64,000 nt of DNA from NCBI GenBank assembly GCA_002633005.1, contig NMRA01000361.1, positions 248,869 through 312,868 of the forward strand. The letters are read 5' to 3'. The stretch's first letter is position 1, and the number at the start of each line of letters is the position of its first letter. The notes under the pieces are model-generated. The model had not been told where the DNA came from. It saw only the letters and a program-made list of their open reading frames with translations, and searched no databases. The DNA comes from Phoronis australis (lineage: Eukaryota; Animalia; Phoronida). Below, piece by piece: positions 1-35,998 of the stretch. A program made the position numbers and the translations under genes.

Positions 1-798
1 GATCGTTATTTTTATGAACACGTTTTGACACCTCAAGAAATGGAAGAAGGAAGTACTCATCTTGTGACCAAAGTTTTTATGAATTGTTCTATCAGTGCAG
101 TACTTGGTTAAAGGATACATTCCTGTTTCGTCTAATGATAGAACTGCGTTTTTATGTACTGTAATTTTTGTACTAGACTTAGTTGAATTACACATGTAAA
201 TTTGTATCACTTGTCTTCTTTCCTAATGCATTATGAATATGCTGCAGTATTTGCATATACTGTACATGCATAAGTGGGTATTTTCGATTAAGTGTGACAA
301 AATTGTTGCAGTTCGGTTTTTCCAGTTTGCACTCTCAGCCCTTCAGATAAGTCCGGTTTCGCCTGACTTGGATGAAATCACTTGGTCTGGTTGGATCTGA
401 CTTGTACGAGTTTTAAGGTCATTGTAGTTAGTCTTCAAGTTCTTGAAAAGAAATGTTGTTCTTGCGATTTTTAAGTTCTACAAGTTATGTGTGGTTACTA
501 GAACAGCTGGTCTTGATTTAGCAACATGCAGCTCGCCCATGCAACTTCAGATTTTTGCAAGTTGAAACGAAATCAGTATGGTATTACTCCCAGGTTGCTA
601 TCAAGTTTGAAGAAGTCAAAGAATTCACCTGCAATTCACTTGTGATTTCAAGACTTCAGAATTAGCAGCACTTTTCCAAATACAGTACTTTTGGCAGGGC
701 TCTATGCTTAGCATATCAACTTGTTCAATGAACCTGTTGCTGAATGAGAAATGAGGTCACCAAAACGAGGTAACTCCTATGTGACAGTGTGATAGTTG

Positions 799-1040
799 GG
801 GACCCTTCCAAGAAACTGACTTATTGTTGACTTATGTCTAAGATTTGTCTCAACCTCCAAACTTTGAAACTTCCACATCCGGATAGTTAGTCAAACTAAT
901 GACAAAACTTAGTCAAAAACAACTCAAACTTAAGATCACTTTCTTGGAATAGACTTGAGACAAATTTAAGGTTTGCCTTAAAGTTGACTAAAATTTAAGA
1001 TTTGTCTTTTAATAGCTAAGTCAATCTTGGAACTGGGCCC
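799..1040. mobile_element. MITE with GGG..CCC termini (Harbinger-like); second copy at 47566-47817
   Basis: Imperfect TIRs gggacccttccaagaaactgactta / taagtcaatcttggaactgggccc; the interior is homologous, in inverted orientation, to 47566-47817. Confidence 0.6.
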
Positions 1041-1597
1041 TTCACAAATGATGCATACTTGCCAACTTTTAGAAATGGGGAAAACTGATTAAGTAAGGAA
1101 CTATGCCCAATGAATGTCAGCCACAATACAGCGTAAAATTAGGTATAAACCCTGTGTTCACGATGACACCGAATTTCCGTTCAGCTTCTGCCTGAGGAGG
1201 AAGCTTACAACAGGAACTTGTATGTATGCATCATGGTCTGGCCTTGCCTGTTTTTAAGGTACAGCTTGGGACTCCTGCATCTTTTGCTTCTATTAATTTT
1301 ATTCGGTGTTCGGATGTTTGGAAGTCACCACATATCTTGAAGCAACTTACTTATTTATCATTTAAAAGGATATCAAACCTGGTGTTGGCCCAGTAGCGGA
1401 TATTAAAAATGATTTTCATCCCAGTTCTCTGAAACAAAAACAAATGACAGCCCTCATAAGTTGGAAGCAAAATTTGAAAATTTCAAAATGGCTTGTTGCC
1501 TTATAAGGGGCTGAAACCAGCAACAGGAATGGTGTGCAGTCGGATACTGCCTACAGGTGTCGTTGCATCACGAGGGACTGTCGCCAGCGTAGTTTAT

Positions 1598-1757
1598 CAT
1601 GGGCGGATACAGGGTTTTGAATTAGGGGGACGAGGGCAGAGTATTAGCCAGGATTTTGGCTGTCAGACATTGGCGCTCCCGAACTGCCCAATGGAATCTT
1701 GGAGAATTTTAGGGGTTGGCATGGCCCCCTTGCCCCCTCCCTCTAAATCCGCCACTG
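1598..1757 (-). mobile_element. ~160-bp MITE family A (TIR CAGTGGCGGAT...ATCCGCCCCTG), 5-bp TSD TTTAT
   Basis: Reverse-complement match to copies at 2961-3112 and 39486-39644; flanked by tttat on both sides. Confidence 0.8.
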
Positions 1758-2131
1758 TTTATCGCCTGTGAGCAGAGGGATACAAGACCACAGATTCGTG
1801 TTGCGTCGCAAAGAGCTGCGACCAGCGAGTACATAGTGCTAAATGGACATAAGTAACTTAAACTTTAGGCGAGTTACATGGCAACTTAGGTAGAAGACCG
1901 CCCACCAAGAACCATAATATGTGTGACGGGTAGCATGATGAGCTAGTTCAATTCTGCTTTGGTCACTCAAGTGGGACGGCAATGATGCATGAGCAGGTGA
2001 CAGAACCACAGTTGGTTGAAATCACCAAAACAGGGTGTGGTATCCTTTTAATTGGTGGATTTGTATTAAGTAGCCACACAAAAGCCGAGTTCCCATTAGC
2101 GATCTGCGGGTCACCAAATCGAGCCTTGTTG

Positions 2132-2279
2132 CATAAGCGGCGCAGCACTGAAAGAAGTGGGGTGTTAAAGCCTCCTCAGCCTCCCTGTGGTGAACCGCCT
2201 ATAAATAGACCACGTGCGGTGTAGCACTGAAAAAAGTGGGGGGCTATAGCCCCCAGCCCCCTATGGTGCGCCGCCCATG
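2132..2279 (+). mobile_element. Tiny MITE family B (tandem dimer), 5-bp TSD TGTTG
   Basis: Two successive ~73-bp units similar to 5500-5572; tgttg on both sides. Confidence 0.7.
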
Positions 2280-2960
2280 TGTTGTTATGCAATTATATTT
2301 GTTTCTTGAAATTGTTGGACTAGGAGCACATCTGAGCTGGTATTTAAACTACAACAAGTAAACTGCAGTGCTGGAATTGTTCCGCAAAAATCCGATGCCC
2401 TTTGTGTAGACGCAGTACACTCGCAAAAATGCAAAATCACGCTACTATTCACGAGATAGGGCCATGCAGCATAACCATGCGATCTCACTCGATTTACGCC
2501 TGAAATTCTTGTGTAGTTGACCCAGCAGGGGCCGACCAATGCACCTTGACGCCCTGCTCGATCAGTCGAAATTTGGGGAGTCCGACATACACCCTGCAAC
2601 ATACGTTTGAATGAGGTCCTTGCCGTCGTAAAACTGGAAATAGAACGGTTCTAAAATCGCGCGGCGTCTTTCAGCTGCAGCTGAAATGAGCGCATTTCTA
2701 TCAAATGTTGAGAGCAGATTTTTTGGTATTGGTCTCTATCTACCAAACTCTGTCACTTTCCTCCACCGGGGGCCGAAATTATGTGTTCCTGTTGAGAAGA
2801 CCACTGGTGTTTGTTTTGCTTTGAGATAATTTTTTATTTTATTATTTATGTCAAAGTATACTCCACTATACGTCAGCAAGACCATCGGTAGCGGAATTCA
2901 TTGCCCTACCCAGTTAGTCACCGCCAGGTAAGGTCCGTATTTGATGCTACTGTATCGGCA

Positions 2961-3112
2961 CAGTGGCGGATTTAGAGGGGGGCCAAGGGGGCCATGCCCC
3001 ACCCCCTAAAACTCTTCCATTTGGCAATTCGGGGGTGCGTCGTCTGACGGGCAAAATCCTGGCTAATACTCTGCCCTGGCCCCCCTAAATATAAATCCTG
3101 GATCCGCCCCTG
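2961..3112 (+). mobile_element. MITE family A copy
   Basis: cagtggcggatttagaggggg...gatccgcccctg; high similarity to 39486-39644. Confidence 0.8.
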
Positions 3113-3199
3113 CCGCGGCACAACTAATTCTTAATAACTAGTGCTCCAATTCGTGAAGATAGTCTTACGAATGTGAAATGTTCCTTGGCTCAGGAATCG

Positions 3200-3671
3200 T
3201 TCTACTAACGTGCTAAAAAGTAAACCGTGCCTGAACGCGCGACGAGGAAGGCCCCCCGGCTGACATTCAGTTGAAACCGCTTGGAAGAGAAGTTACGTAA
3301 CAGGTCTCCAAATATTGGTCGCATCAGGAAAGCACCTTCCTCAAAGATACTATAAAATCTTTGCCTTCCTGGACGCATTCATGTCTTACCGTAATCACTC
3401 ATTGACGTTTCGGTGTCATGCGGCTCTTTACTCCGGACTCGTGTCTCAGTTTACGGGAAGCAGTTTGCCAATCACCCAGTCTACATGTACGTCATTTGTT
3501 GCTTCACACTACGTTGACGTTTTCCTGACCTATTTAAAAACAAATGTTTGATGACCGTAATCGCCCTATATAGCATTCCTAGTCGGGTTAATGTGTTGTG
3601 CTACAGTATAGTTGCCGTGGGTGTATTTTATCCGCGCTCTGATTGCTAGGGTCACTTACCATTTGGTTTCA
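3200..3671 (+). promoter_or_regulatory. Putative hcp promoter / 5' UTR
   Basis: CpG-richer stretch upstream of ATG 3672, with CCAATCA (~3468), TGACGT half-CRE motifs (~3403, ~3487, ~3515), a TTACGTAA palindrome (~3293), and TATA-like TATTTAAA (~3531) and TATATA (~3567). Confidence 0.35.
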
Positions 3672-6600
3672 ATGGCCTCTCGTGTGCTTTTGCGCTGGGG
3701 AGCGTCTGGATTTGTATCCACAAGCAAAATATGGCAGTCATCCAGGAGCGTGGTGGTTGGCTCTCTTATCCGGAGGCAGAATACAGACTACGCACCAGGT
3801 CTTGCGGCTTGTAATGTGGTTTTGAACCGAGGATATGCTGTTAAACCGAGACCTTCAAAGGAGTCCACACGCGAGGGTATGTGTATAAGGCTATGTAGGA
3901 CCTATCAACAAGCCTGGCTGTTTAGCAAAATATCTACAAATTATGGAATTCAAGTCAATAAAAGTACTTTTTGTGAAAGTAGAAAGCCTGTAGAATTGAT
4001 GTTTGGATTTTGATAGATCTTGGATGAATTGGCAGACTTGTTCATGTCCTTTAGTAAAATTTAAAAAAAAGGAAGGACCATCGACAGCAAAATCACGGTA
4101 TCAACAACATTGTTTTATATTGACTTGACTGAGATTAGACATGCTCTTAGTTAGAATGACTTAACGACTGGGCTGATGTGGTTATAGGCTATGTACTGTC
4201 TTATTCTGCTATATAGTACCTATCGGAAACCATGCTTTGTAAAAAGAAGGAGTAACTGAACGCCTTGTGCCTTGACACTCGCAGACTCCTATATAAACAT
4301 GCATTTCTTGACAAAGTGTTCAAAATGAAACCTCAAAAACTCTGTTACAATTTTCTAAATTACCTCTTCCATTTCGTTTATGCAACATCAGATTTTTTCA
4401 TGAAAATCGCAACAGTCTAAATTTTGATAGCCCTCACACAAAAGTGGAACATTTAAGAATAGGGTTTTGAAGAACATCGCATAATAAAGCAAAGTATCTG
4501 AGAAAGTTTCATATGAATCCGATCTCCCATCTCTGAGATATGATGGATGTTACTAATTTTGGTCAAAATTGAACTTTTTATGGGTCTGCATAGCCTTAAA
4601 CCAACTAACTGGACAATAGTACAATGTCATTATTTGTTAATTTGTATAATTTCAAACGTCAGTGGTAAATGCTATTGGTAGTCCAGTAATTGGAGTAGCA
4701 GTCCGTTTTATATCCCATAGCAACAATACAATAATTTCGTTAGAGCTCGTCAAAATCTTCATAACGCATACCAAAACTGTGTGGAGGAGGCAAGAAAAAA
4801 TTATGAAATTGAATTGTGACTTATTTCATTTTGAACACGAGCAAGTTCTTTGAACTATTTTGACGCTGGAGTGTTAACGTAGACAGGAGACTGGATAATG
4901 TCTAAATATTTCGTTCAGACCACAGTCTGCCAAATCACTATCTTGAGGTGACTGTTACGATAAAAATGTGCAATGTCATAAAGGATTACCTGGTGAAACT
5001 GATTAATGTGGTCGTTATCTTATGAATAATTTTGTGATTGTGACTTTAAAAGTCTTTCCCACGTTACGGATTTTTTCAACTTCTCCCCATCTTCAATGCA
5101 CATTGATTTTCTTCTGACACTCATGCCCTCCACTATATCTTCATGACCCTTCCGAAAAAGATCTGATCACTATTTACACACGCTATAGGGTAAAGCTATA
5201 GATTTGACACTGAGCTGTAGAATTTCAAAAAAGTTGGTCACTTTTTTGAAACTGAATGGTGTCCGCAGGAATGTAATGTATTCCTTAGCACTTGAATTTC
5301 GACTGGAACCCTATCTATGAAGTCTATCTGGCGAGGTACAGCATTTTTTTCTTTTTCATTTCGTTTTTTATTTCTTTATTTTACTTCACAAAACCTGAGT
5401 TTCTAACAGCGCAATTATTTAATCTCCAAAATCCCCCACCCACGTCAAATTTTGATGGTACGCGAATTGCCAAATTGTATACAGGAAAGATCGGTCCTAC
5501 ATGGGCGGCGCAGCACTGAAAAAGGTTGGGGGGGGGCTATAGCCCCCAGCCCCCCATGGTGCGCCGCCCATGTCCCATTGATATGCTGGGATGATTTTAG
5601 GACCGCGCCATTGTCGCGTAAAGATTTTCAGTCGTGACGCACTGTAGTTACTTAACTTGCCGGGCCAATGCACATATAAAAATTGGGTCGCAGTCACGCC
5701 TCATTTTATATCCATTGAATTCAGATAGTAACTCAAGGACAATGCAGAGCAGTCGATCAAAACTAACTTTGTCGATGACCAAAACGACAATGTTGGGGTG
5801 GTGGTAAAGCATTGTATGAAAATATACATATCTCAACTATGGATTTGTGTGTTTGGTTCCCAGGTAGCCGTTTAGACAAATCACTATTCGCCGTGCAACG
5901 TACTAAAGTAGCAGATGAAATCACACGTAAAAATGTACCCCCCCCCCCATGGGATCAAACAAGGACTGAAAATGCTAACGAGTGACATGTTACTAATTTG
6001 TCCATACGTTTGAGACCCTGTGAGTCAATTTTCGAAAAGGATCCCTGACTTAGACATGTTTCTCTTTCCTGATCTTAATATATTCAATTTCTTAGCTGGA
6101 CTAGAAGAAATGAATGGGCCTCGGGTTTTTCGTCAGGAATACTTCCAGTGTGCCGGCGGCAGAACATTTTAGGCGCCAAGCGGCAAGGCCTCAAGCTGTA
6201 ACGAACTGTCCGAGCTTCGCTTCTTATTTGAGTTAAGACCAAGTTGAGATCAGATTTGTAACGAGATGCTTGGTCTAAATTAAAAGTTTTTTTGTGACGA
6301 ACTTGCGTCCAAGTGCTCACGAAGACGAGCACTTGCCGATTTTTTTTTCTTCAGCCAATAAGGAGGTAAATTATCGATTGCTTGTGAAGTATAGAGATAT
6401 GCCAATGTACATCTTCAAATTGGAAAGTTTTATATCTTTGACTCTAGTGACGGGTAATCCACGTTGTCTTCCAGAGATGTTTTGTTTTCAATGTGAACAG
6501 ACAAAAAACCGACGAGGATGTGTCGAGATTGGTGTTTGTGGAAAGACACCAGACGTCGCTGCTCTGCAAGACCTCCTTGTGTTTGTTTTGAAAGGCATCT

Positions 6601-9600
6601 CTGTCTACGCCAATAGGCTTAGAAAGATGGGAGTTGGGATTCAACAGGAGATTGGAGAATTTACGTTTGGGGCTCTTTTCAGGTAGACCTATTCAAAATT
6701 AAGGATTATTACGCGATATTGTCTTAAAATACCCACGGGTAAATCAAATAGGAACTTACCAGCACCCACTTGCAAGGCCCAGAGGCGGATCTACAGGGGG
6801 GTTCAGGGGGTTCAAACACCCCTTTCGTGACAGGATCAAAAATAAAAACTCCAGAAAAAAGAAATCAGCAACTAAAAACCACAACAAATCTTACACGACC
6901 TTCCTTCCGCTCAGCGCTATGCGCCTCGGATTCGCTCGAATCCTAACACCTCCCCTCCATTACTGAAAACGTAGATCTGCCACTGCAAGCAATTGTTCGT
7001 TAATATGCATACTTGTCTCTATTGTCATTAAAACGCACTTCTTTGTTGTTTTGATTTTGTGTCAGTTTTACAGTCGATCTTTTAGTCCTGATTACAATTT
7101 CAGTTGATCCAAACAAATGTTATTTTGTGGAGGCTGTTAGGGCCGGTGTTTATTTTTTGTCTGAATATTCTTTCAGTACTCTCACGAATGTTAACTTCGA
7201 TCAAGATCGTTTTGTTGAATACATATCAGACGCAGTTAAATATCGAGATCAGCTCAAAGAATCATACATGCTGACATGTAGTGATGAGGGAATCCCACCG
7301 GACGTGTTCCTGCACGGACCTGCGCACTGGAAGCCTCCTGGCAATAAGTTTGACGTGCACAGCCTGGTAGAAGAAGGTATTTTTGCACGATTATGCATCA
7401 ACTTTTTTCGCTGTAACTGTAAGTGAACCTCTCGAAAACAAACTCGTGGTATAAACCTATTGAAAATAGATTTTCTAAACAGTTGTTTTAACGTAAACGT
7501 TGATCGTTCTCACAGTCCTTTCGAGTTTTAATGTCCAGACTTGAAATTAGAGTAATTCATTTACTTCAGAATTTTTTTTCTCGTAAGTATGATAGTGCAA
7601 CTCATTACAGGAAAGCAGGTGAATCTCCGTAACGAGGAACTCCAGTACGGCGAGGATGTTCACGGCGTTCGACAGATGATCATCTACGGCCTGAAAGGCA
7701 TGGCGGCTTATGGGCGCCATGCGCAACTGGTGGACGAATATGACGATTCGCTGTGTGGGTTTGTGTATGAAGTACGTTATTTCGAACACCATTCTATGGC
7801 CATTATTAGTCTTACAGGTTCATTTCCGATCGCTATATGTTTACTTAAGTTTTGGCCACAATTCTACTTCTGCATGAAGATATACCTTTCATTTTTATGC
7901 TACTAAATGTTTCACTGGATGGAAGCTCCCACCTCGTACAGAATATAAAGTCTCAATAATTGGTGCATAGCCCAGGCTGAAGAGGTCAACCTAGCACATA
8001 GTATCTGCCGAGTGAATTGGCTTTAGTTGTAGTTTGTCTATACCGCTAGTGGTGAATAAAAAAATCTTTTTGACTTGAGATCACTGCACCAGTTGAGTAC
8101 AATATTAGGCCATCACTACCACCTCCACTAATACTACTTCTGCTAAATCGTTCCAGGCACTTGACTGGCTAGCAACTGGCCCACCAAAAGAAACAAACGA
8201 TTTGGGAGCTAATCTTGCCATGGCTTTGAGGGTCGGCGAGGAAAACATTAAGGGGCTCCAGCTTCTGGACAAGGGTCACTGCACCTTATATGGAAACCCA
8301 TCACCAACTGAAGTCAACTTAACACCGGTACCTGGAAAGGTAAATGTTTTCGGTTCTACAAAAGACTTGTCAGTAGCCGATAAGCACACAGGTGCCAAGA
8401 TACTGTTTACTTCTAAAGCTGCTTTGTGAGAAATGATTAGGTTTCATAGTTTGAAGAACATTTAACAAATTTCGTTTCAGTGTTTATTGGTATCCGGACA
8501 CGACATTCATGACGTATATAACATCCTCAAGATGACAGAGGGAACTGGAATCAACGTCTACACTCACGGTGAATTGCTTCCGGTGCATGGCTATCCCAAA
8601 CTAAGAGAATTTAAGGTGAGGATAGAAGTGGCGGAGTAGAGAAGAATAGTCCCCACTCGTCTGGAACCTGGTTGCCAACCCTTTCTGTAAGAAGCTAGTC
8701 CTTTTTTCATCTGACGTGCTGTAGGCCCAGTTACGCCCTTTTAAGTTTTAAACAACTTGGTCTGACTATTGGTTCGAAATATTCAGTTCTGATGCTAACT
8801 AGGAATCATTTTTTTAGCACCTTGCAGGCCACTTCGGTGGGGCGTGGCAACTACAGCGGTTCGAGTTCCCTATGTTTCCGGGCCCTATTGTTATCACCAC
8901 CAACTGTTTAACAGAACCCATGAAGTCGTACAAGGACAGCATCTACACAGTCAATGAAACAGGTAGCCATTACACACGGTTGCTGCGTTACTTGGTGTTT
9001 ATCAGACATCGTGCCAAGTTAATGACTGTAGCCGTTATAGTTCTAGGCTTAACTATAGCGCTTGTGTTTAAATGAACACGCCATGAGCACCCCAACATTG
9101 AGAACAAGCTGGGAAGTGTGGTCATTTATTTTGTAACTAATTTAAGATGAAAATCCGAGTCGCTATGAATACTGAATATGACGACCATATTAACACTTTT
9201 CCTCAATGTCACTCTCACTCTCGTTTAATCCATCACGGCTTTGTTATTGACGTTTTTTCGCCAATTGTAGTTAACGTTCCGATCTTTTCTTTGCGGAGAT
9301 TCGATGATTTCCTGTTGGTATATTTATACGCTTAGTACTATAATTTATTTTAAGGCTGGCCTGGGGTGAAACATTTGCGTAACTTGGCAGAGGACTTTCC
9401 TCAAGTGATTGACCAGGCATTGTCAATGGAAGGGTTCACTAAGGCCCGTCAGTCTGAGCAACAAAAGACACTAACTGTGGGATTTGGTCATCATGCTATT
9501 GTCAGTAACGCCGACAAGGTAACTACTGTGTAGCTAATCTTTCCAATTTTTAAAACCATTGAAACCTTTTGTGTAAATGAGAGTAAAAAGTTCAAAGACA

Positions 9601-10207
9601 ACCCACCATCGAACTGTATATTATACTATATTATATTATATTAGTAAATACTTATCCAGTGTTGCTTTATTATCGCCTGGCGTTCTTTTCTTTATAGGTC
9701 ATAGGTGCAGTGCAATCCGGTGAACTTAGTCGCGTATTCCTCGTAGGCGGATGCGATGGTGCTGAGAACAAGCGCACATATTTCTCCAAACTCGTGGATG
9801 GGTTACCCGAGGACACTCTCATCCTCACACTAGGTTGCGCCAAGTACCGCTTCAACCGGCACGAGTTCGGGGAACTGGGGTCAACTGGACTCCCACGCCT
9901 TCTGGACGTCGGACAGTGCAACGATGCTTACGGCGCCGTTGTAGTCGCTACAGAACTTGCTAAAGCGTTCAATACTGACATCAACTCCTTACCCCTGTCG
10001 TTGAATATTTCATGGTTTGAACAAAAGGCCGTTGCAGTTTTACTGTCTTTGCTGCATTTGGGCGTCAAAAATATTCGCTTGGGTCCCGTCATGCCGGCTT
10101 TCCTCACCCCAACTGTTGTTAACATTCTACAAGACAAGTTCAATATTATGCCAACTCAAGTGAGAAACCCGAATGATGATCTGAAGGAAATGATGTCGGG
10201 AAATTAA
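3672..10207 (+). CDS. hcp: Hybrid cluster protein (prismane / hydroxylamine-NO reductase family), 9 exons, 645 aa, with predicted N-terminal mitochondrial presequence
   Basis: Exons 3672-3876, 6448-6682, 7177-7376, 7611-7771, 8157-8339, 8481-8615, 8818-8962, 9355-9518, 9698-10207. All introns GT-AG, phases consistent, 1938 nt total. Motifs: [23 protein letters not shown] (cubane Cys), [78 protein letters not shown] at ~10274 and ~10344. Exons 2-9 are near certain; linking exon 1 is inferred from phase. Confidence 0.95.
3889..4595. mobile_element. Non-autonomous TIR element (Kolobok-like, TTAA-type flanks) at the start of hcp intron 1
   Basis: ataa|ggctatgtaggacc ... ggtctgcatagcc|ttaa inverted termini. 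Confidence 0.45.
5500..5572 (+). mobile_element. Tiny 73-bp MITE family B in hcp intron 1
   Basis: TIR catgggcggcgca / tgcgccgcccatg; flanks tccta / tccca. Confidence 0.75.
6780..6985. mobile_element. MITE with TIR CAGWGGCRGATCTAC in hcp intron 2
   Basis: cagaggcggatctac ... gtagatctgccactg inverted termini. Confidence 0.6.
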
Positions 10208-10653
10208 AAGTAAGAAGTGGTCAACTTCAAAGGAACTCAAGGTTTTTCGCTGAAGAGGAACTTAGAGTTGGGAAATAAAAATGCAGTTCATTTTATTCTG
10301 TTGAATGATTTAGCTTTATTTATGTCCATTTTCTTGAATTAAGAATAAAAACCCCAATTTGATGTTCGTTTTAGTCGGTAAAACTTGGCGAGACGCAGCT
10401 TCAACTAATGAAAAGGTTAGCGTTTTAAAGATCTGTAACCAAACCACAGTTCCGACTCCGTAAGACCAACACGGCGCCAATTCCAAGCGGGAAGTCGCGA
10501 TCTCTGTAAGGTCGTAACTTCTTTTTGTTCAAGTACAAACATGTTAATCTTAGTTTCTGGTAAATATAATGTGTCAGTGGTAAAATGTTGCATTAACTAT
10601 TTAGTAGCATTCTTGTCGCGCCGTGTTGAGTAATTGCAACAACAGCGTATTGA

Positions 10654-10729
10654 CATGGGCCGCGCAGCCATTAGTGGGGGGCTATTGCCCCCCCTCCCCC
10701 AGTCCCCTATCAGGGGCGTGCCTCCCATG
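10654..10729 (+). mobile_element. Tiny MITE family B diverged copy, 5-bp TSD ATTGA
   Basis: attga|catggg...cccatg|attga, with the same G-run/C-run interior. Confidence 0.65.
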
Positions 10730-11737
10730 ATTGAATCGACCGGTTGTTGCAGTTTTGTGGAAGAGGCTTTTCCATCATTGAATGCAAAGGTTATAATTGA
10801 GAATCTTCTCGTTTACGATGTAATTATTGTTAAGTTGTATCATTGTAAATTTGATCGTCATGTAAATAAAAAGCCTATACAAACCTTAGTGTTTTAAGTC
10901 AGTATCTCAATACATGCCTTTTTCAAAAACACATTTTGGAGTCTTTTTGCAAGCATTTTCCAGCACTTACCAGGCAACAATCTCTTCACCGCGTGGAAAA
11001 ATACTTGCTAACCACAGTCGACGACGTGAACAAAGTGTGACGTCACGACCGTGGTGTAACGCAATATGTACACATGATTTCGTTGAAATGGTGGTTTTCA
11101 ACCGAGCATATTACCGACCTAAAGAAGCCATGAAGTCTATGAGATGGGAATACATGTATCTTTCCCAATAGTTCTAGATCCATTGGCATTCGAAACTGAC
11201 GAGACATATAACTGCATGGGTAAGCAGGTACACGTAGTTGATAAAAAAGTTGTTTTAACGCGACGTGGTGACGCTTCTACACACTTTTCCGAAAATGTAT
11301 ATTTTAACCGGAAACTTTTCAAATGTGCCTCGTCGTCTTGTTGTAAGCCACGTCGTTTTTAGTAGCCACCCAAACTAGTATAAAAATGAACGACTGGAAG
11401 AGTTCCGTAGACCAGTACATTCGCCGCGCTAATACATGCATGCGTGAAAAATACAGGCAGTCCATATAATTTGTGAAGTCGTATGTGAACCTACTGTGAT
11501 CCCTCATAAATAATTGCTGTTATAGAAACAAATGCCTCATTTTTGTTCAGTCTTTCAAATGAGCCCATGATAACATATGTATAGGGGCTATTGTGAAAAA
11601 ATACACCTCCCTCCTTAACAACAACTCATTTGCTAAATTATAGTTTTCTTTGTGATTCAGAATCTGATTAGGTGACTGAAATATAAGCTTATCTTATTTT
11701 CAGAAAAAATCGTTAATTTTCACTTAAAATTCCTTCT

Positions 11738-13104
11738 ATGTGGCCAGGTAAACTTAGGACATCTCAGAAGAGCGCGGGTCACAGACGAAGACGACGTCAC
11801 AAACTGGAAAGGGTGACTGAAGAATTCTTCACGGGATTTATCGATGAACGTAAAGATATAGAGGAAAGCAAGAAAAAGTTCAGAGGCAAGTCCCGTCCTT
11901 AAATGTTTTACATCCTGAATATACACAAAGACAACCTCGAAATTACCTTCCAGAGGTGATTAATTATATGCCAAAGTCATTAATAAACTTGGAATGAAAT
12001 GAATCGTTGTATCAATCAAATTCTGTTTGATTTCAGAAATCGACATCTCGTCACTGCGGGAGAAATTTCCCAAGTTCTGCGAGGTGGAAATTCTTGTGTT
12101 TAGGTCGTTGTTTCAAACATTTGACGTAAACCAAGATTGTGTTATAGATTTCAATGAATTGTAAGTATCTCTATGCTAAACTGCAAACTCGACACCTGTT
12201 ACGGTGTGTGGCTCATTTATTACGAAAATTAAAAAATGTCAGCTTTGATGCGGTTAGATTAAAAGGCACGCTTTAGCGTGACATTTGAATTTCTTGCAAA
12301 AGTGAGTAATCGATAATGACTTTAAGCGACATCTGACTCTTTTAAGGTGTCGAGTATTAGATGATCTAGGGGACCGTTCAACCAGAGCGGCTCGAAGAAC
12401 TTACTTTGACTTAGCAGACGAGGACAAGTCAGGATCGATGGATTTCGAAGAATATTTGAAGGTAACTCATTACAAATAGGTGATTTCGAACGTGGTCGAC
12501 TGGCATAGTTTTGAACTTCGCCAACCACCGTGTTGTGCTTATCAAAACCCTGATTGTAATGTAAGGCAAGGAAATTGCAAACCCTTGTCCTTGCTTATAT
12601 GAACTGAGGAAAAACACCGAGTTAGAAAACATAAAAGTAAAAACGCGTCCTTTCCCATCATCAAGGTTTTTTAACTATGCTATTCTCACCCATCGTCTTG
12701 CCTTTTGCCTCTTGTTGGTATGCGTCTGGAGCACGCGGGTACTACTGGATTGGGAAACAAGGCAGTTTTGGTTCTCCTCATATTGTAATATGTACAGTGT
12801 ATGTTTGTAGTGTGAATGCACGAAAAAACCGTAACTTCCATTCTCCCACGAAACGGTACCTACTTTGAAATTCTTTTTTAGCTGCGAAAAGAGTGTTCAG
12901 CTTGATAACTCGGCAGTGATGCTTATGAGTTCGGCAATTTTCGTAATAACCCGTTTTGTTTTCTAGTTCCTCGATCTAATACTTCATCAGCACGAGAAGC
13001 AGTTCTCTGAGCTGAGGCTAGAGTTAACTAAACGCGGCTTGGAGAAGGCAGAGCGACTACGAATGCTCAGTGTCCCAGAACAAATGCGACATGGGTTGTT
13101 CTGA
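11738..13104 (+). CDS. Small two-EF-hand calcium-binding protein (~174 aa), 4 coding exons
   Basis: Exons 11738-11885 (GC donor, AGAG|gcaagt), 12037-12160, 12347-12461, 12967-13104; 525 nt in frame. EF loops DVNQDCVIDFNE and DEDKSGSMDFEE; basic N-terminus HRRRRRHK; ends QMRHGLF*. AATAAA at ~13587 and ~13598. The start codon is less certain. Confidence 0.8.
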
Positions 13105-16100
13105 CACTAACTTATTTTTATAATTAAAATGTTTTTATATAACTTATTTATTGTTATTTGTACGCACTGTTTTGATTTACCTAGCTATAGTAGATTACGT
13201 ACGTAGTACTTTCATAGAAGTTACACTTTACAGTTTTATTCACCCTGGCAGTTGTTTCTACATCACTGTGTGTGCGAATACGTATAAACATTACGTATTG
13301 CAATTAACGTGCGTTCTAAGAGCTGTTTTTTGAGTGCCTTAGTAGAAATTTATCATTAAGACTGCAGTATATTGGCACTATTTCAACTTGTGAAGAAGAT
13401 AAACTGATGTCGCAAGGACGTAAATAGTTGAACACAGCAGTGTTACTTGGATTACAAATAAATTTTCTTATCGGTGTAAATTCGTGGTCAATTTTGTTCA
13501 AACGTAGTAATTGTTATGGCAGTAATGTAATGTTACGTCACTGGACCTGCCAATTTACAACTGCAGACGGTCATTCAGTGTGTATAAATAAACATTAAAT
13601 AAAATTTTGTGACTCTGTTTTATCCATTAGCTTGACTGACTTCAGACTTCTCTCCTAACTTTAGCGTCATCGACTATTAACTGGCAAAGCGACAACACTT
13701 GCTTGAATTCATTTTTGTCATTGGACCAAGAATCCTTGATAGCTTGACGCCGATGTTCCTATAGTCGAGCAAATATCATTACTAATATCTCCCAAAACAG
13801 CGCCCATGCCTTTACAATTGTCTACTCGATTTCACTCGATCCTCTTTCTTCACAAACGAATCGTTATAACTTCCACATTTCCGTTAAATCTAGTATGAAG
13901 AAGAATTGATGTGAATTATTGCAAATGGCAAATGTCTGAAACAATTACTTTGCTGATTGTTGTTTTTTGTGAGCTATAACAAACCAAAGCCTCACTTGGC
14001 TGCAGAAGATAACACTAGACACGCAACGTGTCTGCAAACACTTATTTAGAGACTCGCCGGAACCAGTAAAAATTCGTGGAACATATTTCGACCTACTATG
14101 ATTTACAATTCAAAACTTTACCTTTGGTAGTTGCAATGCCTGATGAAGGAGACGGTAATACGAGAGCTTTCCGCCATAAAGTGGATCCGTGTGCGTGGTC
14201 CGTTCGGAATGGTTAGCGACATTTCTTTAACCACTGCTCATTCTTGTGAAATTACTTTATTTTTAAGATATGTGCCCACCGAAAGTTCCCTCAACATCTA
14301 CACATGTGACCTTTTACTTTGGTACCAGCCAAGTGTCTCTATTGACTGGTAATTGAATGGAAAATATTTTGTATACGACCTAGGGTCAAGAGGACGCACA
14401 CGGACATTTGAAAGAGGATTGCACATTGTGGATTGATGGGAACCGTTATTTTACTCCAGATTTCTACGATTTGGTACTACGAATATTTTTGAAGGCCACA
14501 TGAATAATGTTTCATAACAAGTGTGAAGGTAGCACATTTCAAATTTCTCTCAAAACGCTTTCTGGCACAAGAACAGCCATTGAATATGGGTACTGACGGT
14601 AACAGACTGGGAGAATATATTTTTGGTCTGTATAGAGTTCAATAGCCGTCTCGCAACGAGAAAAACTTAGCCAAAATCACACAGCTCTGATTGAAAATAC
14701 ACAGCAACATCTCGCGGAATATCTTTTCAAGCGTGGTGCTTACATTAATAAACTCCACCGTGACCCTGAAGTACCTGGATATGAAACCAGCACGTCAACA
14801 AGGTCAATGGCCTTCGTCCAGAGGTCACCATGGTGCAGCAGCGCAACTTGCGCTAGGAACAAGCTAATCGAGGGCAATCGATCACGAGGACAAAAACTAA
14901 GCGAGCCGAACTAGACACTGCTGAGCCAATTAACATCACTTTATCAGGTACAGGCAGTGCAATATGCATGTATTCAAGAGGCAAAAACTGCTTCACTAGA
15001 GCAGAGATGAATTGGACCTTTTGTTCTCAGACATCTCTTACATCCTACTATTGTGCTGGCTGTGCAGAGAACTAGCTGACTGGACGATGAAGATGTGATT
15101 TGTTATACCAGCCCAACACCCTGCATTTGATGACCCACATAAAACAAAGACAAATAAGGATAAAAACTCTATTAAAACAGTATCCAAAATACATGTGCAT
15201 AATATAAAAATATGGAGTAAAACATTCATAACAAATGTGTTTGTTAGACGCAGTAGGGTAAAAGTTATAACAATTAACAAACATTAAAAAGATACTAAAC
15301 CTAATTTTGGCCTATTAACAGATATTAACCATGACTTTTGGTCCAGCTCTCTAAAACAATTTAACACTTTGTAACCCTCGTCAAGACTAAAAAATAGGGG
15401 GCAAATTTTGAAACCTCCTTACTAAGTGTACTAAAGGGGCTAGGGTGACCTACGTTTTAGGGGAGTCATACAACTGTGGGGAAAGACCACCCAACAAGAA
15501 CCATGACATCCAGTGAGTATCTGTTTTCAGCTGAATCCTGCATTTATCATTGACGTCAGACGCCAACAGAGCATTAGTTAGCAGGGGAACGAACGAGAAT
15601 TGATTGATATCACCAAAACAGGGTTTAGTATCCTTTATAAGAATGGAGGGGTTTTCTAGAACAGTGAAGTTTCAGATACGTTTACAGGAAAACCTTTGAT
15701 AGAATTGATAAGTCACTTCAGGACAGTCGATTTCAGTGTAAACTTATTGTCATTTACGACTTCGTATTGACCTTGTGTTGACTAATTAGGTTCAAAAACA
15801 CATACCTATACTGCATAAAAGTCGTCATTGAGTTTCATTATTCTTAAGGTTGGTCCTTGGCTTGAAGTCAACAGCAAACAACCTTTTACAAAACTGGTAA
15901 CGGGGGTCTCCCTGGACAAAAAATTTAAAAATGTGCAAATTGCATGTCTTGTTCTCACGTACCAGTCTTTCTTTTTGTTAATTAATGAAAACAATTACAG
16001 TTGCACATTATTTTCACTTTTTGGCCAGGTCACCATCATTTTACTGTCAAATAATAAAAAATACACCACTGTGGAACACAACTGCAATCATTTGACTTAA

Positions 16101-32100: not shown

Positions 32101-33712
32101 TGGAAGTGTCTGTAATTCTGGTAATGCTCAGGTTGGGCCTGAAGGCCACCTGGGTAAGGTTGGGGTCAGATACTACGGTGCTGAAAACCAGCCAGACAGG
32201 ACTCACCGTTTTCCAGGCGCTCAGCTATCTCAATAGGTTCACGACCCAGTAAAGGCTCAGTGTCCTGTATAAGCAGTTTGTTCATGTCAGCCAAAGTGAA
32301 AAACTTTGCACTGTCTGTTGGCTGAAAAGAAAGCTAATATTGAGGAACAGGATTCGCAGTAAAACACAGTCTTATCATAAGTAGTTACTATTGAATAGGA
32401 TGACAAACTGATTCTGCCAACCACTACAGATAAAAAAAGTTAACATCTGAGAAAACTTATAGTGACTCTGCTGTGTTATTTAGCTGAAATTTTCATGAAG
32501 ATTAAACCCGATTAGACCACTGATTGGTTGCTCATTTATTTAACAATGAACATTCACTGCCCTCTATTTGAAATGTCAGCTCAGCTGTTACAATAAGAGC
32601 TTCAGAGGTCAACGTACAGTTTTCTCTACACAAAAGACAATGTTGTCATCAAAAACATTTGCAGGTAAAAGGAACGTCTTTAGCACCAGCTCAGATTGCA
32701 ACTTTAACTTATCCAAGTATACCCTACCTTAAAATCTGGCACTGGTTGAGTTAAAAATATGATGTGCAAAGGTGATGTGGCAGAGGAAGTCCGGATAGTT
32801 CTCAGAACTCCATTCAAAGTAACCTTTGTCCCCAAAACCTGAGGAGCATAAAAATATTTCATGTAGTATTTTCCATTCACCATTAACAACCTGGAATATC
32901 TGAGGCTACTTCATCACTTGACAAGTTTTTCAGTGACTAAATGGCTCTGGTCAACGTCAGTTTCGACCTGCCACGTGTCAACACACCTCAGGCAAGCACC
33001 TATCAAGATCCCTCCTAAACAAAAATGTAATTATTTCAATTTAAATAGTGTTTGTCCGTGAACAAAAATAGCACCATCACCAACAAAAGTAGCCCATTTC
33101 ATTTCCCAAGTCATTCGATAAAGAGGTCAGCATTCCCCTAGTTTGTGTCAACAAAGTGCTTCTGAAGAACTAATGAAACATGAATTACACCACTAGAAGT
33201 ATTACCTATCTCACACAGAATTTTATTGAGAGTTGATTAGTTGTAGTGTTTTAGTCACGAATATATTCCAAAAACGCTCGATAAACCGGTCCTCTGGCTC
33301 TGAGTCCAAACTAATTAGTCTTTTGAAACCGCTTAGGTCAGGAGAGGTATGTAGCTTTTCACAACCAGTTCCACATACGAATGTGCCTTTTCTGAAAAAT
33401 CCCAACAAAAAATCACTTTGAGAGCCTGAAACAGTACTAAAGGCGTCAACTTCGAAGTTGAATGTCATAAAATGACTGATTGAGATTGAATGAAGAATGA
33501 AATGTCAAGACTGAGTCAAGTGACTGTTTATTATTGGTTACCTGCTGGCCTACTCGGCGGGCTGCAGCTTTAAAAGTCTCTCCATTGTCAACAAGACCAG
33601 TGGGAAACCACCATCCCGAGTCCTTGACCAGTAAGTAGCTCTTCGAGTCTTCATCGGAAATAAACAGGCTTACCGATCCCAGTGAGCCACCTGCACACTG
33701 TTTTGAAGCCAT
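17110..33712 (-). CDS. Multidomain PPP-family Ser/Thr phosphatase with N-terminal degenerate Nudix-like domain and EF-hand-like region, 19 exons, 787 aa
   Basis: Exons in transcript order: 33542-33712, 32728-32838, 32207-32321, 31246-31371, 29632-29758, 29143-29316, 28141-28224, 27649-27780, 26843-26922, 26344-26493, 25202-25293, 23986-24066, 23327-23459, 22660-22790, 22007-22113, 20661-20763, 19994-20136, 17883-18060, 17110-17235. All GT-AG, phases chain correctly, 2364 nt. PPP motifs GDIHG, GDYVDRG, RGNHE, HGG, WSDP, RAHE and FSSSGYC are present. EF-like loops [13 protein letters not shown] and [14 protein letters not shown]; Nudix-like [27 protein letters not shown]. Confidence 0.9.
18556..19100. 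mobile_element. PIF/Harbinger (Tourist-like) MITE, 3-bp TSD TTA
   Basis: tta|gggctgttccagtaaaatctgtatgggaggggg ... cccccctcccatacggattttactggaacagccc|tta; ~33-bp TIR. Confidence 0.85.
19443..19575. repeat. 43-bp tandem repeat x3
   Basis: aaatggaccYcagtcatgctccagcaacaagagcacatccatc at 19443, 19486 and 19529, with no spacers. Confidence 0.95.
23010..23233. repeat. ~51-bp minisatellite, ~4 copies
   Basis: Repeats of ggtgatattcgtgacataacatgaattcactYaaagttgtatcacattg. Confidence 0.85.
23534..23608 (+). mobile_element. tRNA-derived (Pol III promoter) head of a SINE/retrozyme-like element
   Basis: A box TGGTGTAGTGG (23534-23544) and B box GGTTCAAATCC (23588-23598) in a T-arm gtggg/cctgc. The 5' acceptor strand is missing, so this is not a functional tRNA. 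Confidence 0.6.
23666..23712 (+). ncRNA. Minimal type I hammerhead ribozyme motif (Penelope-like-element type)
   Basis: Stem I CAC / GTG; core CTGACGA (23671-23677) plus an extra T; stem II GGCCG..CGACC (one mismatch); GAAA (23699-23702); palindromic loopless helix III ACGT; predicted cleavage after GTC at 23706. Confidence 0.55.
24490..24880 (-). mobile_element. Related Helentron/HINE-like fragment (inverted) in a phosphatase intron
   Basis: ccactag.. units at ~24554, 24653 and 24802, with the caagtttcatgaaatcc signature. Confidence 0.45.
30246..31063. mobile_element. PIF/Harbinger MITE with the same TIR as 18556-19100, 3-bp TSD CAA
   Basis: caa|gggctgttccagcaaaatc ... ggattttactggaacagccc|caa. 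Confidence 0.85.
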
Positions 33713-33944
33713 TGCATTATTCTGTACAGAGTTGACCTCGATTAGCTAATGTCAATTGCGGATTTCATTGTTTCCTCAAAAATCCAACAAATACCTTTTG
33801 CATTGCTTGTTTAGCTCAAATTTAATTTTCATTATACACATTTTATTTTGTAGTGCTGTAACAAACCAGCAACTATTGTAATTCGAAACTAGTGTAAGAA
33901 AGTATAAGTAAGTTCACGTAATGAGTTTCCGTTCCCAAACGAGC
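33713..33944. promoter_or_regulatory. Bidirectional promoter between the phosphatase gene and ZNHIT3
   Basis: Divergent ATGs at 33712 (-) and 33945 (+) are separated by only 232 bp. Confidence 0.7.
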
Positions 33945-35998
33945 ATGGATGTAAAGACGTTTTCTTGCGAAGTTTGTAAACTTGCACAACACAAGTACAG
34001 ATGTCCAAAATGTCGCACTAAGTAGTAAGTGTTCTGCAAAATTGTATTTTCTAACATTATGCACTTGATTTGAGACATCCGGTGGTAAATATGCCAGAAA
34101 ATAGTCAAATGTTCAGTCTTCGGCTTCAACAGTTAATCTCAAGACATTCTCAATCTCATGTTTGTCTCACTCTCAGAGTCATGTGTCGAATAAATGGGCC
34201 TAATGGTCATGCGAGTCAAATATGTTTCTTTACAAGTGTGGTGGTGTGCTGTTGTGTTTGTACCTTCTGCTTCAACAGTGACTTTTAAAATGTATTGTAA
34301 ACAGAGTTGTATCATGTCTCTTAGTCTTTGTTTCCAAGCGCAATAATATTACTAAACAGAAATGGGTACAGTGTTCTCCCCAACATAACATTCTGACTCG
34401 GCTGGAATTGGAAAATCCATGTTCACGTTCGAAATTGCATGTCCATGCTTTGGGGACTTTATGCATAAAAGTCATGGAATAAATGTGCTGAACTGTTTCC
34501 AAGAATCCCAAAAGATCCTAATTTGTCGATTAAATGACTAATCTCCCAATACTCTAAACTCTTTGCACGTTAAGTTTTGAAACTTGATACAAGTAAGCTA
34601 AACCTGTCTCAACATAAAGACGAGTCAAAACAGATTGTGAAGAACCGTGGGTTGGATACTTGGGACAGGGCTGCAGATTGTGCATGTAGTGGGGGGTGAT
34701 GATGACAATATGGCCAGTGTAAGTTGATTGAAAATAAGTGTTGGTTGTTGGATAGACTTAGAGTTTTCCTTTATAGACATGTTTGAATGATACCAGAAAT
34801 TGCTACAGCTGCGCATAACAATTTACTGCTATTAGCAAGACCATGAATGTGCACTTCCCTTTCAGTTGTTCTGTGGTATGTTACAAGAGTCACAAGGATG
34901 TTGGCTGCTCCGAGATAATAACCAAGTGTGACAAAGCTGAACAACCTGGTAATACTCTCGGTATGTAGGCTGTTATGGCTTCTTTCATCTCGTTTACATT
35001 GAAGCTTGGAATTGACATACTTTAAATCAATTTATCCTTATCTGCTTAAGGCGCTTTGTTTCTGCATCTGCGTTACAAAAATTGAGTCAGTTTATACTCC
35101 GTAGAGTCTGTGCATGCCCAGTTTTCACTTCCTTACATTTCTTTATAAACAGTTATCATAAAATGTTGGGTAATTGGATTGTTTTGGTGTCATTTACTTA
35201 TTTTTTATTTTGCCCATATAACAGTTAGTTTATCAAAAGACCAGGTATGTATAAAATCGAAGATTATCGAACGTGAAGTCATGTGGTTAGTTTGGACAAA
35301 GATAGACACAGGGTCTAGGTATGCTCGTGTGAAAAATTACGTCAGTCCCTCATTTGAGGCGAGTCAATTGGATTACTGTGCATTCGCATGTGGTGAGATA
35401 AGTATCGGTTTAAATCTGTTCGAAACCACGTCCTCGAGCAGCTTTTACTTGAATCGATTTATAAGCTAAACCACCTCCGTTTACACTCTCTTCCTAAAGG
35501 TATTTGAACCGCAAACTGAGTTCAAATCTATTGAAAGTCTCCAATGTAAACGAGGTAGTAGTCTGTATTTGAAGAGTACTTGGAAGTTTAATTGAGTGGA
35601 ATACGAGTGAGTTGGATTATTTTATTATGAGTGTAAGCCATACCAACATTAGACACATTGTATATCCAAAACTGAAATACTGTGTGAGTGAGTAATTTTC
35701 ACTCCTGTTTATTACATATGCTTGTAATCTTTTAGAGGAAGGCGAGGTGTCGTCCGACGATGACATTGACTCTGAGGATCATGTGTCGCGTGAGAGACTT
35801 GCTATGTTGGAGAATAATGATGAACTACGGACATTGCTTGGCAACCGTCATTTACGTGATCTGTTGAGGTCACTGACAAGTGCTGAGGCGCCGTCACAAG
35901 CCATAGATAATGCCATGCAAGAACCTCTATTTGTCGAACTTGTTGATCAGTGCTTAAGAACGGTGGAACCAGAAAAATCTAGCCACCTAATGGTTTGA
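33945..35998 (+). CDS. ZNHIT3: Zinc finger HIT domain-containing protein 3 (box C/D snoRNP assembly factor), ~145 aa
   Basis: Exons 33945-34024, 34866-34960, 35736-35998. zf-HIT CEVC...KYRCPKC..KYCSVVCYKSHK; C-terminal LRTLLGNRHLRDLL...MQEPLFVELVDQCL typical of ZNHIT3/Hit1. Confidence 0.9.

What the first reader, a model, noticed from the sequence alone, without database searches (positions are those of the whole stretch)
3672..3876. A separate upstream exon supplies a mitochondrial-type presequence to HCP
Seen: 68 codons, [68 protein letters not shown]. They are Arg/Ser-rich with a single acidic residue in the first 63 aa. The exon ends in a phase-1 donor (G|gtatgt) that joins in frame to the phase-1 acceptor at 6448, about 10 codons before MFCFQC, where prokaryotic HCPs begin. 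R-G-Y|A (aa 53-56) fits the R-3 MPP/Icp55 cleavage motif. Inference: the enzyme is imported into mitochondria, where it could protect cytochrome c oxidase from NO or act in anaerobic mitochondrial metabolism. This would be a prokaryote-type core plus an added targeting exon.
Basis: partly seen in the sequence, partly recalled or inferred. Interest (0 to 1): 0.8.

Follow-up and report, generated by a model that had tools for sequence, protein, structure and literature searches.

The report
Animal mitochondrial hybrid cluster protein
An invertebrate gene for hybrid cluster protein, an iron-sulfur enzyme described mostly from microbes, has a real spliced first exon that encodes a likely mitochondrial import signal; worms, clams and lamp shells carry similar extensions, so these animals likely keep an old, overlooked mitochondrial enzyme that probably removes nitric oxide.

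Summary
Exon 1 (3672-3876) is real. RNA reads from three runs (93 reads) and one contig splice it to the HCP core, but at acceptor 6475, not 6448. The product is 636 aa with a 69-aa extension, and all cluster-binding residues of a class I HCP are intact. The extension looks like a mitochondrial presequence: net +6, one acidic residue in 63, an R-3-type site. No TargetP-type predictor could be run, and localisation is untested. It is not a recently added exon on a bacterial gene. The protein lies in a well-supported animal clade (annelids, Lingula, bivalves) inside a eukaryote clade, and 22 of 27 homologues in that clade carry a similar basic extension. Mitochondrial HCP is already shown in Acanthamoeba and reported for Chlamydomonas, and this scan earlier noted HCP presequences in Naegleria and other protists. 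My paper searches found no description of mitochondrial HCP in animals. Verdict: a new (animal) member of a known kind. Mitochondrial targeting about 85%; NO-to-N2O reductase function about 50%. An antisense RNA covers the gene in 2 of 3 raw-read runs.

The parts
3672..3876 (+). Coding exon 1: 68 codons + 1 nt; predicted cleavable mitochondrial presequence (aa 1-55, net +6), R-3-type site R53-G-Y|A56, then a short charged spacer
   Evidence: Translation; reads and joint; composition. The targeting role is inferred. The transcript 5' end is not mapped; rough arithmetic depths puts coverage up to about 3550-3700.
3877..6474 (+). Intron 1 (2,598 nt, GT..AG, phase 1)
   Evidence: Joint 3876->6475 in 93 reads of X2-X4 plus an X1 contig
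6446..6447 (+).
   Evidence: Absent from the 15 of 28 joints listed; minor use not excluded
6475..6682 (+). Exon 2: start of the HCP core (Met70 at 6477) with the class I cubane motif C72-x2-C75-x8-C84-x5-C90
   Evidence: aligns from residue 1 of Desulfovibrio-type HCP chain 1e2u, E 5e-20
7177..7376 (+). Exon 3 of HCP
   Evidence: Joints; open spliced frame
7611..7771 (+). Exon 4 of HCP
8157..8339 (+). Exon 5 of HCP
8481..8615 (+). Exon 6 of HCP (H326, E350)
8818..8962 (+). Exon 7 of HCP (C394)
9355..9518 (+). Exon 8 of HCP
9698..10207 (+). Exon 9 of HCP, coding part (C486, C514, C541, E575, K577; stop at 10205-10207); the 3' UTR runs on to at least about 10,640-10,780
3334..10275 (-). Antisense RNA over the whole gene, introns included, with its own intron at 3530-3659; ends not mapped (bin limits given); likely non-coding
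   Evidence: opposite-strand depth in X2 and X3, none in the intron bins of X4; joint with CT..AC on + in 23+17 reads. Longest ATG ORF 81 aa; no Rfam match in 1-16000.

Best explanation
Exon 1 is spliced onto an intact, nine-exon class I hybrid cluster protein gene of an invertebrate and encodes a likely cleavable mitochondrial presequence, predicted to bring the enzyme into the matrix, where it probably reduces nitric oxide to nitrous oxide when oxygen is low. Shown: transcription, the 3876->6475 splice, a 636-aa open frame, all cluster-binding residues, and membership of an animal clade in which nearly all members carry a basic, acid-poor extension. Inferred: translation starts at ATG 3672; the basic amphipathic N-terminus is imported through TOM/TIM23; MPP cuts after G54 and Icp55 trims Y55, leaving A56 (581-aa mature protein); matrix Fe-S assembly loads the [4Fe-4S] and hybrid clusters; an unknown donor (ferredoxin or an NAD(P)H flavoprotein) feeds electrons. 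The targeting is likely old, shared across these animals and probably inherited from unicellular ancestors, rather than newly added here. Odds: targeting about 0.85, old shared origin of the extension about 0.85, NO reductase as main function about 0.5.
For: Splicing: 93 reads plus a contig. Frame and selection: 17 of 17 listed core substitutions against RNA reads are synonymous, while exon 1 has 1 missense, 1 synonymous change and an in-frame codon deletion. This is what a translated, sequence-tolerant leader would show. Presequence features: net +6 over aa 1-55; R4, R8 and K19 fall within 60 degrees on a helical wheel; 11-residue hydrophobic moment 0.60; no long hydrophobic segment (best 19-residue mean 0.57), no PTS2 or PTS1. 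Three out-of-frame ATGs lie between 3672 and Met70, one of them opening an ORF that overlaps Met70, which disfavours a cytosolic form by leaky scanning. Homologues: 22 of 27 animal-clade proteins have 55-72-aa extensions with net +3 to +8 in aa 1-40, without sequence similarity to exon 1 (best E 0.5). Across 23 proteins the extensions have R 12.7% vs 4.0% and D+E 3.0% vs 11.8% in the core. 7 of 19 have an R-3-type motif 12-15 residues before the core Met. Tree: animals 100/99 within a 29-row eukaryote-rich clade 97/97; the 4 named bacteria are outside it. Papers (passages): Acanthamoeba HCP is mitochondrial by microscopy and induced in hypoxia/anoxia (PMC13632651); Chlamydomonas HCP2 is mitochondrial (PMC8003979; PMC7412212); HCP is counted among anaerobe-enriched LECA mitochondrial proteins (PMC13777428); bacterial HCP is a high-affinity NO reductase (PMC10210160 Introduction).
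Against: No localisation or activity data exist for any animal HCP in what I could search, and no TargetP/MitoFates run was possible. The amphipathic helix is only moderate (18-residue moment 0.46; two glycines; V15 on the basic face). ATG 3672 has T at -3, and the X1 contig begins at 3681, so the 5' end was not shown directly. 5 of 27 animal-clade proteins have short or no extension (0-37 aa); truncation is likely but shown only indirectly for one (P0073, whose cluster mate from Ridgeia has 70 aa). The R-3 motif is absent near the core in 12 of 19 homologues. Holozoa did not come out as one clade (0% of bootstrap trees for the 3 unicellular rows; AU p 0.177, so not rejected), so a eukaryote-to-eukaryote transfer into a lophotrochozoan ancestor stays open. 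No electron donor was found: no diflavin reductase in the window. HCP function is still debated even in bacteria. The reads come from other individuals with the same species label.
Confidence: 0.7

Rival explanations
1. The protein is mitochondrial, but its main job is not NO reduction. It could be an S-nitrosylase, a hydroxylamine or peroxide reductase, or an electron sink in anaerobic mitochondrial metabolism.
For: All these activities are reported for HCPs and the physiological role is called unresolved (PMC10210160 Introduction; PMC7412212 passages). The gene is expressed at useful depth in all three raw-read runs, whose conditions I do not know.
Against: The same review calls hydroxylamine and peroxide kinetics incompatible with a physiological role and favours NO reduction. 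Nothing in the sequence departs from the canonical active site.
Confidence: 0.3
2. The gene entered an early lophotrochozoan ancestor by lateral transfer from another eukaryote (already with a presequence), rather than descending from the holozoan ancestor.
For: All 12 named animal HCPs found are annelids, a brachiopod or bivalves. Unicellular holozoans do not group with animals in the free tree. HCP has a record of lateral transfer (PMC1484493 passages).
Against: Salpingoeca, Amoebidium and Pigoraptor all have HCP with basic extensions. Holozoan monophyly is not rejected (AU p 0.177), and the backbone is unresolved. Searches listed only the best 120 hits each, so absence from other phyla is not shown.
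Confidence: 0.3
3. The main product is cytosolic or dual-located: translation from Met70 (6477) or an alternative first exon gives a core without the extension.
For: Met70 is conserved at the prokaryotic start position. ATG 3672 has a weak -3 base. Minor joints were hidden.
Against: The only listed joint into exon 2 comes from exon 1. Sense-strand depth is 0 in the intron-1 bins 6004-6270 in X2-X4. Three out-of-frame ATGs precede Met70. The extension is kept in 12 of 12 named animals.
Confidence: 0.1
4. One reading: a recently acquired bacterial HCP gene gained a new targeting exon in this lineage.
For: The core starts at the same Met as bacterial HCPs, and the extension sits on its own exon with no sequence homologue.
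Against: The core is nearer to animal (up to 60% identity) than to prokaryote-type (about 51%) proteins. It has 8 spliceosomal introns and sits in an animal clade within eukaryotes in four trees. Presequences normally diverge beyond recognition (established knowledge, recalled).
Confidence: 0.04

Closest known systems
Mitochondrial HCP of Acanthamoeba castellanii (PMC13632651, 2026; passages read)
   Same: Eukaryotic HCP placed in mitochondria; NO elimination under anoxia proposed; amoebozoan HCPs fall in the same eukaryote clade in my tree (Acanthamoeba itself was not among the rows).
   Different: There localisation is shown by microscopy and proteomics and hypoxic induction is measured; here it is an animal and localisation is only predicted.
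Chlamydomonas reinhardtii HCP1-4 (van Lis et al. 2020, seen only through PMC8003979 and PMC7412212 passages)
   Same: Class I eukaryotic HCPs with N-terminal organelle-targeting extensions; HCP2 is mitochondrial.
   Different: Three of four are predicted plastid proteins; they come from an algal duplication; about 47% identity.
Class I HCP of Desulfovibrio (PDB 1e2u, 1gn9; organism names recalled)
   Same: Same cubane motif spacing and all hybrid-cluster residues; best PDB matches for exon 2 and exon 9.
   Different: No extension; prokaryotic and cytoplasmic; no introns.
Database-annotated 'hydroxylamine reductase-like' proteins of Owenia, Lingula, Helobdella, Ridgeia, Lamellibrachia, Mytilus, Mya, Mercenaria, Dreissena, Mactra, Solemya, Sinanodonta
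   Same: Orthologue clade (100/99 for the rows); 53-60% identity for those compared; all 12 have a 57-71-aa basic extension.
   Different: Uncharacterised. The family is mentioned in passing in the Manila clam genome paper (PMC5499747) with no word on localisation in the passage read. This protein has no database match above about 60% identity.
Class II HCP with Hcr reductase (E. coli)
   Same: Same fold family; source of the NO-reductase evidence.
   Different: [quoted passage not shown]

Membership tests
Hybrid cluster protein, class I | Prismane/HCP domain over the full core | tested here: met
   Pfam PF03063 on 6 of 6 downstream exon ORFs (4 above cut-off); full-length blastp to HCPs; PDB matches
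Hybrid cluster protein, class I | N-terminal cubane motif without the 4-residue class II insertion | tested here: met
   C72-x2-C75-x8-C84-x5-C90, gap-free alignment to 1gn9/1e1d; class definition from PMC10210160
Hybrid cluster protein, class I | Full N-terminal helical domain (not the reduced class III form) | tested here: met
   Core 567 aa; the Owenia orthologue aligns end to end with 1e2u but only from residue 277 with class III 7e0l
Hybrid cluster protein, class I | Hybrid-cluster residues His, Glu, 4 Cys, Glu and the adjacent Lys (list recalled from Desulfovibrio structures; Cys/Glu equivalents named in PMC10210160 passages) | tested here: met
   H326, E350, C394, C486, C514, C541, E575, K577 present; each is 27 of 27 in the animal clade
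Hybrid cluster protein, class I | Binds [4Fe-4S] and hybrid clusters; reduces NO/hydroxylamine | not testable with these tools
   Needs purified protein, EPR and assays
Cleavable mitochondrial matrix presequence | N-terminal, in frame with the passenger in the real transcript | tested here: met
   Joint 3876->6475, 93 reads; open 636-aa frame; the 5' end above the ATG is only roughly inferred
Cleavable mitochondrial matrix presequence | Net positive, Arg/Ser-rich, few acidic residues | tested here: met
   Net +6 in aa 1-55; 1 D/E in aa 1-63
Cleavable mitochondrial matrix presequence | Amphipathic helix near the N-terminus | tested here: inconclusive
   Moment 0.60 (11-mer) and 0.46 (18-mer), within the range of the homologues; basic face R4/R8/K19, but imperfect; no calibrated threshold available
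Cleavable mitochondrial matrix presequence | MPP site, R-2/R-3 consensus (recalled) | tested here: met
   R53-G-Y-A56; a similar motif at a similar distance in 7 of 19 homologues; cleavage itself untested
Cleavable mitochondrial matrix presequence | Not a secretory signal or peroxisomal signal | tested here: met
   No long hydrophobic core, no PTS2, C-terminus not PTS1
Cleavable mitochondrial matrix presequence | Directs import and is removed | not testable with these tools
   Needs GFP fusion, import assay or N-terminomics; TargetP/MitoFates not available
Class II HCP-Hcr system | [quoted passage not shown] | tested here: not met
   No insertion; no diflavin reductase in the window by tblastn with 7 fusion N-termini, best E 0.37 (Hcr itself was not used as a query)

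The most novel reading that the evidence does not exclude
Annelids, bivalves, brachiopods and this animal keep an ancient anaerobic-type NO reductase in their mitochondria, a relic of the facultatively anaerobic ancestral organelle that other animals lost. It would shield respiration from NO in hypoxic sediments, and it would mean that some of the nitrous oxide emitted by benthic invertebrates, now credited to gut and shell microbes, is made by the animal's own mitochondria. A condition-dependent antisense RNA may damp the gene.
Probability: 0.3. Interest if true: 0.8.

Novelty: new member of a known kind. Interest (0 to 1): 0.5.

Why it matters
A 2023 paper's introduction places HCP in bacteria, archaea and 'a few unicellular eukaryotes' (PMC10210160), and a 2007 tubeworm study set its HCP cDNA aside as possible bacterial contamination (PMC2175520). 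Yet a whole animal clade has an intact gene, spliced and expressed in this animal, with a predicted mitochondrial leader. If it is a mitochondrial NO reductase, it adds an enzyme to the anaerobic mitochondrial metabolism of hypoxia-tolerant invertebrates. It would also give an animal test case for the proposal that HCP was in the LECA mitochondrion (PMC13777428), and it would question the assumption that invertebrate N2O is all microbial (PMC5640653 passages). Mussels make it directly testable. The presequence itself is ordinary.

Tried and rejected
Acceptor 6448: rejected as the main site; pyrimidine content did not separate it from 6475 (0.76 vs 0.71), but reads did. Minor use and the exact 5' end remain open. 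No whole genome is held for this window, so paralogues and an electron donor outside the window could not be sought; inside it there is one HCP locus and no diflavin reductase. The run search listed no holder on record as RNA; the raw-read runs it added by species label did carry the transcript. ESM Atlas on exon 1: no usable hit, uninformative. Pfam on exon 1: none. AlphaFold of the Owenia orthologue as a stand-in: residues 1-60 have pLDDT under 50 and the core is confident (mean 80.8, pTM 0.82). This is weak evidence, since non-homologous leaders in a 17-row alignment would score low anyway; no fold search result was obtained. Organism placement with the neighbouring C8orf82-like exon: the best named hits are a nemertean and gastropods (58-60%), with arthropods and cnidarians close behind, so 'probably lophotrochozoan' is not firm. 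Rfam 1-16000: no match. Paper searches for animal HCP found only passing mentions; allowed partial term matches, and their listed papers held no HCP term. Van Lis 2020 is not held and Hagen 2022 was not read; either may list animal homologues. Four large supplements of PMC13777428 could not be read; the 8 readable ones had no HCP term. Rows left out of trees: near-duplicate cluster members, fragments under 480 aa and rows whose cubane motif my pattern missed (Pigoraptor; included).

Full report
1. Observation. The 68 codons from ATG 3672 are as quoted, with a GT donor at 3877 in phase 1. Two in-frame acceptors lie before the HCP core, at 6448 and 6475. RNA decides between them. Three raw-read RNA runs with the same species label and one older contig set were laid on 2800-10800. 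The joint 3876->6475 appears in 28, 12 and 53 reads and in one contig. No joint to 6448 is among the 15 of 28 joints listed; the 13 hidden ones are the less supported, so minor use is not excluded. All eight introns are GT..AG and read-supported. The spliced frame is 636 aa, with the core Met at aa 70.

2. The gene is an intact class I HCP. Pfam PF03063 matches 6 of 6 downstream exon ORFs, 4 above the curated cut-off. Exons 2 and 9 match solved HCPs (E 3e-20 and 3.5e-53). The cubane motif has class I spacing (class definition from the Introduction of PMC10210160). All twelve cluster-related positions are present (the list is recalled from Desulfovibrio structures) and invariant in 27 of 27 animal-clade homologues. 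Against the RNA reads, 17 of 17 listed coding substitutions in the core are synonymous. Exon 1 shows one missense change (Y40F), one synonymous change and an in-frame deletion of one codon. The table listed only the best-supported rows (356 more hidden, many intronic), so this is a sample. It fits a conserved enzyme with a translated but sequence-tolerant leader.

3. The leader looks like a matrix presequence. It has net charge +6 over aa 1-55 and one acidic residue in 63. R4, R8 and K19 lie on one helical face; the hydrophobic moment is moderate (0.60 over 11 residues, 0.46 over 18). R53-G-Y-A56 fits the R-3 consensus (recalled). There is no signal-peptide-like hydrophobic core and no peroxisomal signal. 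Chance controls: 32 of 12,138 core 40-mers are as basic and acid-poor; 1 of 80 ATG-led 63-codon open stretches in the window meets all three criteria, and it is the exon itself, the thresholds being set from it. Three out-of-frame ATGs precede Met70, one of them opening an ORF that overlaps it, and sense depth just upstream in intron 1 is zero in bin 6004-6270, so a cytosolic form from Met70 is disfavoured. Against: ATG 3672 has T at -3, the contig starts at 3681, and the 5' end is only roughly placed upstream of the ATG (estimates 3551-3702). No targeting predictor was available.

4. The leader is not special to this gene. Two homology searches (best 120 listed each) and a cluster look-up gave HCPs from annelids (Owenia, Helobdella, Ridgeia, Lamellibrachia), Lingula and seven bivalve genera, plus unnamed transcript assemblies. 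Of the 27 proteins in the animal clade, 22 have 55-72-aa extensions with net +3 to +8 in the first 40 residues, including 12 of 12 named ones. Five have 0-37 aa and are probably truncated. The extensions share composition (R 12.7%, D+E 3.0%, against 4.0% and 11.8% in cores; 23 proteins) but not sequence (best E 0.5). 7 of 19 have an R-3-type motif 12-15 residues before the core Met. A choanoflagellate, an ichthyosporean, a filasterean, an ancyromonad and two amoebozoans have similar leaders.

5. Origin. FastTree runs on 95, 179 and 100 rows and IQ-TREE LG+G4 on 41 rows all put the window protein in one clade with the named animals (100/99). In one search that clade lies within a 29-row group (97/97) holding all named eukaryotes and none of the 4 named bacteria; 15 of its rows carry no group label. 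Holozoa is not recovered, but is not rejected either (AU p 0.177). Sampling was by similarity to animal queries and many rows are unnamed. A recent bacterial transfer with a newly added exon is therefore not supported. Vertical descent with many losses is favoured over an old eukaryote-to-eukaryote transfer, but not proven. A neighbouring gene has animal best hits, led by lophotrochozoans, so the locus is animal DNA, probably lophotrochozoan; the closest HCP is only about 60% identical.

6. Mechanism. Shown: transcription, splicing, reading frame, active-site residues, clade-wide basic leader. Inferred from established import biology: TOM/TIM23 import, MPP plus Icp55 trimming to A56, cluster loading in the matrix. 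Inferred from bacterial work (PMC10210160) and the Acanthamoeba hypothesis (PMC13632651): NO reduction to N2O under low oxygen, which would protect cytochrome c oxidase and Fe-S enzymes. The electron donor is unknown for class I. Earlier notes of this scan pointed to a diflavin reductase paired with HCP in protists. I found 7 of 7 tested ~1,200-aa representatives to be flavodoxin/FAD-HCP fusions, but no such reductase in this window (best E 0.37).

7. What is known. Mitochondrial HCP: shown by microscopy in Acanthamoeba, and reported for Chlamydomonas and Nyctotherus (PMC13632651, passages; PMC8003979 and PMC7412212, passages). HCP is listed among anaerobe-enriched LECA mitochondrial proteins (PMC13777428, passages). 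In that study Lingula and Helobdella are in the 673-species set but not the 203-species set; four large supplements were unreadable. Animal HCP: the family is named once in the Manila clam genome paper (PMC5499747, passage), and a Riftia cDNA was called possible contamination (PMC2175520, passages), although two related tubeworms have the gene on genomic contigs. Searches found no paper on mitochondrial HCP in animals. The library lacks most subscription papers, and van Lis 2020 and Hagen 2022 were not read. PMC1484493 (passages) documents the patchy, transfer-rich history in protists.

8. Antisense RNA. In X2 and X3, reads of the opposite orientation cover about 3334-10275 through all introns at roughly 7-31x, with a spliced intron at 3530-3659 (23+17 reads). 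X4 lacks them in the non-repeat intron bins. Per 1,000 million letters read, sense depth is 16, 20 and 31 and antisense 12, 9 and 0; three runs cannot show regulation. The longest ATG ORF is 81 aa, and Rfam finds nothing.

9. Verdict. Observation partly confirmed (exon real, acceptor corrected). Interpretation partly supported (presequence likely; 'added exon' framing not supported). It is a new, animal member of the known kind 'mitochondrial HCP'. Interest 0.5: the presequence is ordinary, but a clade-wide, apparently undescribed mitochondrial HCP in animals is surprising and easy to test.

Noticed in passing
window 3334-10275, - strand: Antisense RNA across the whole HCP gene in runs X2 and X3 but not X4, with its own intron (3530-3659) lying over the likely HCP promoter/5' end; HCP sense depth is lower in the runs that have it.
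   Followed up: partly
P0275, P0276, P0278, P0282, P0284, P0299, P0308, P0271, P0293, P0305: Unnamed HCP fusions: seven with flavodoxin plus FAD-binding domains, one with flavodoxin alone, one with cytochrome b5 plus FAD/NAD reductase, and one with cytochrome b5. These are candidate electron donors for eukaryotic class I HCP; some begin with presequence-like N-termini.
   Followed up: partly
P0247, P0249: Tubeworms Lamellibrachia and Ridgeia encode HCP with a leader on genomic contigs, which suggests that the Riftia plume cDNA set aside as contamination in PMC2175520 was a host gene (that cDNA was not compared here).
   Followed up: partly
P0008 (Helobdella) vs window intron 2 (6683-7176): The Helobdella model has a 12-residue insertion at the position of window intron 2, which may be a mis-called intron at a shared position; inferred from protein only.
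   Followed up: no
P0019 cluster: Mytilus species have several HCP models each, some short (221-529 aa), which suggests tandem duplicates or fragments.
   Followed up: no
window 33446-33745 (-), 35696-35998 (+), 55416-55955 (-): Neighbouring exons: NUDIX hydrolase, ZNHIT3 C-terminal domain, C8orf82/DUF4505; ordinary animal genes.
   Followed up: partly
window 2961-3112, about 4500, 5500-5572, about 6790-6960: Short interspersed GC-rich repeats with many partly matching reads and loose ends, probably small non-autonomous elements.
   Followed up: no
window 36286-36642 and 60474-60961 (+): Two ORF translations share a near-identical stretch, indicating a repeated element about 24 kb apart.
   Followed up: no
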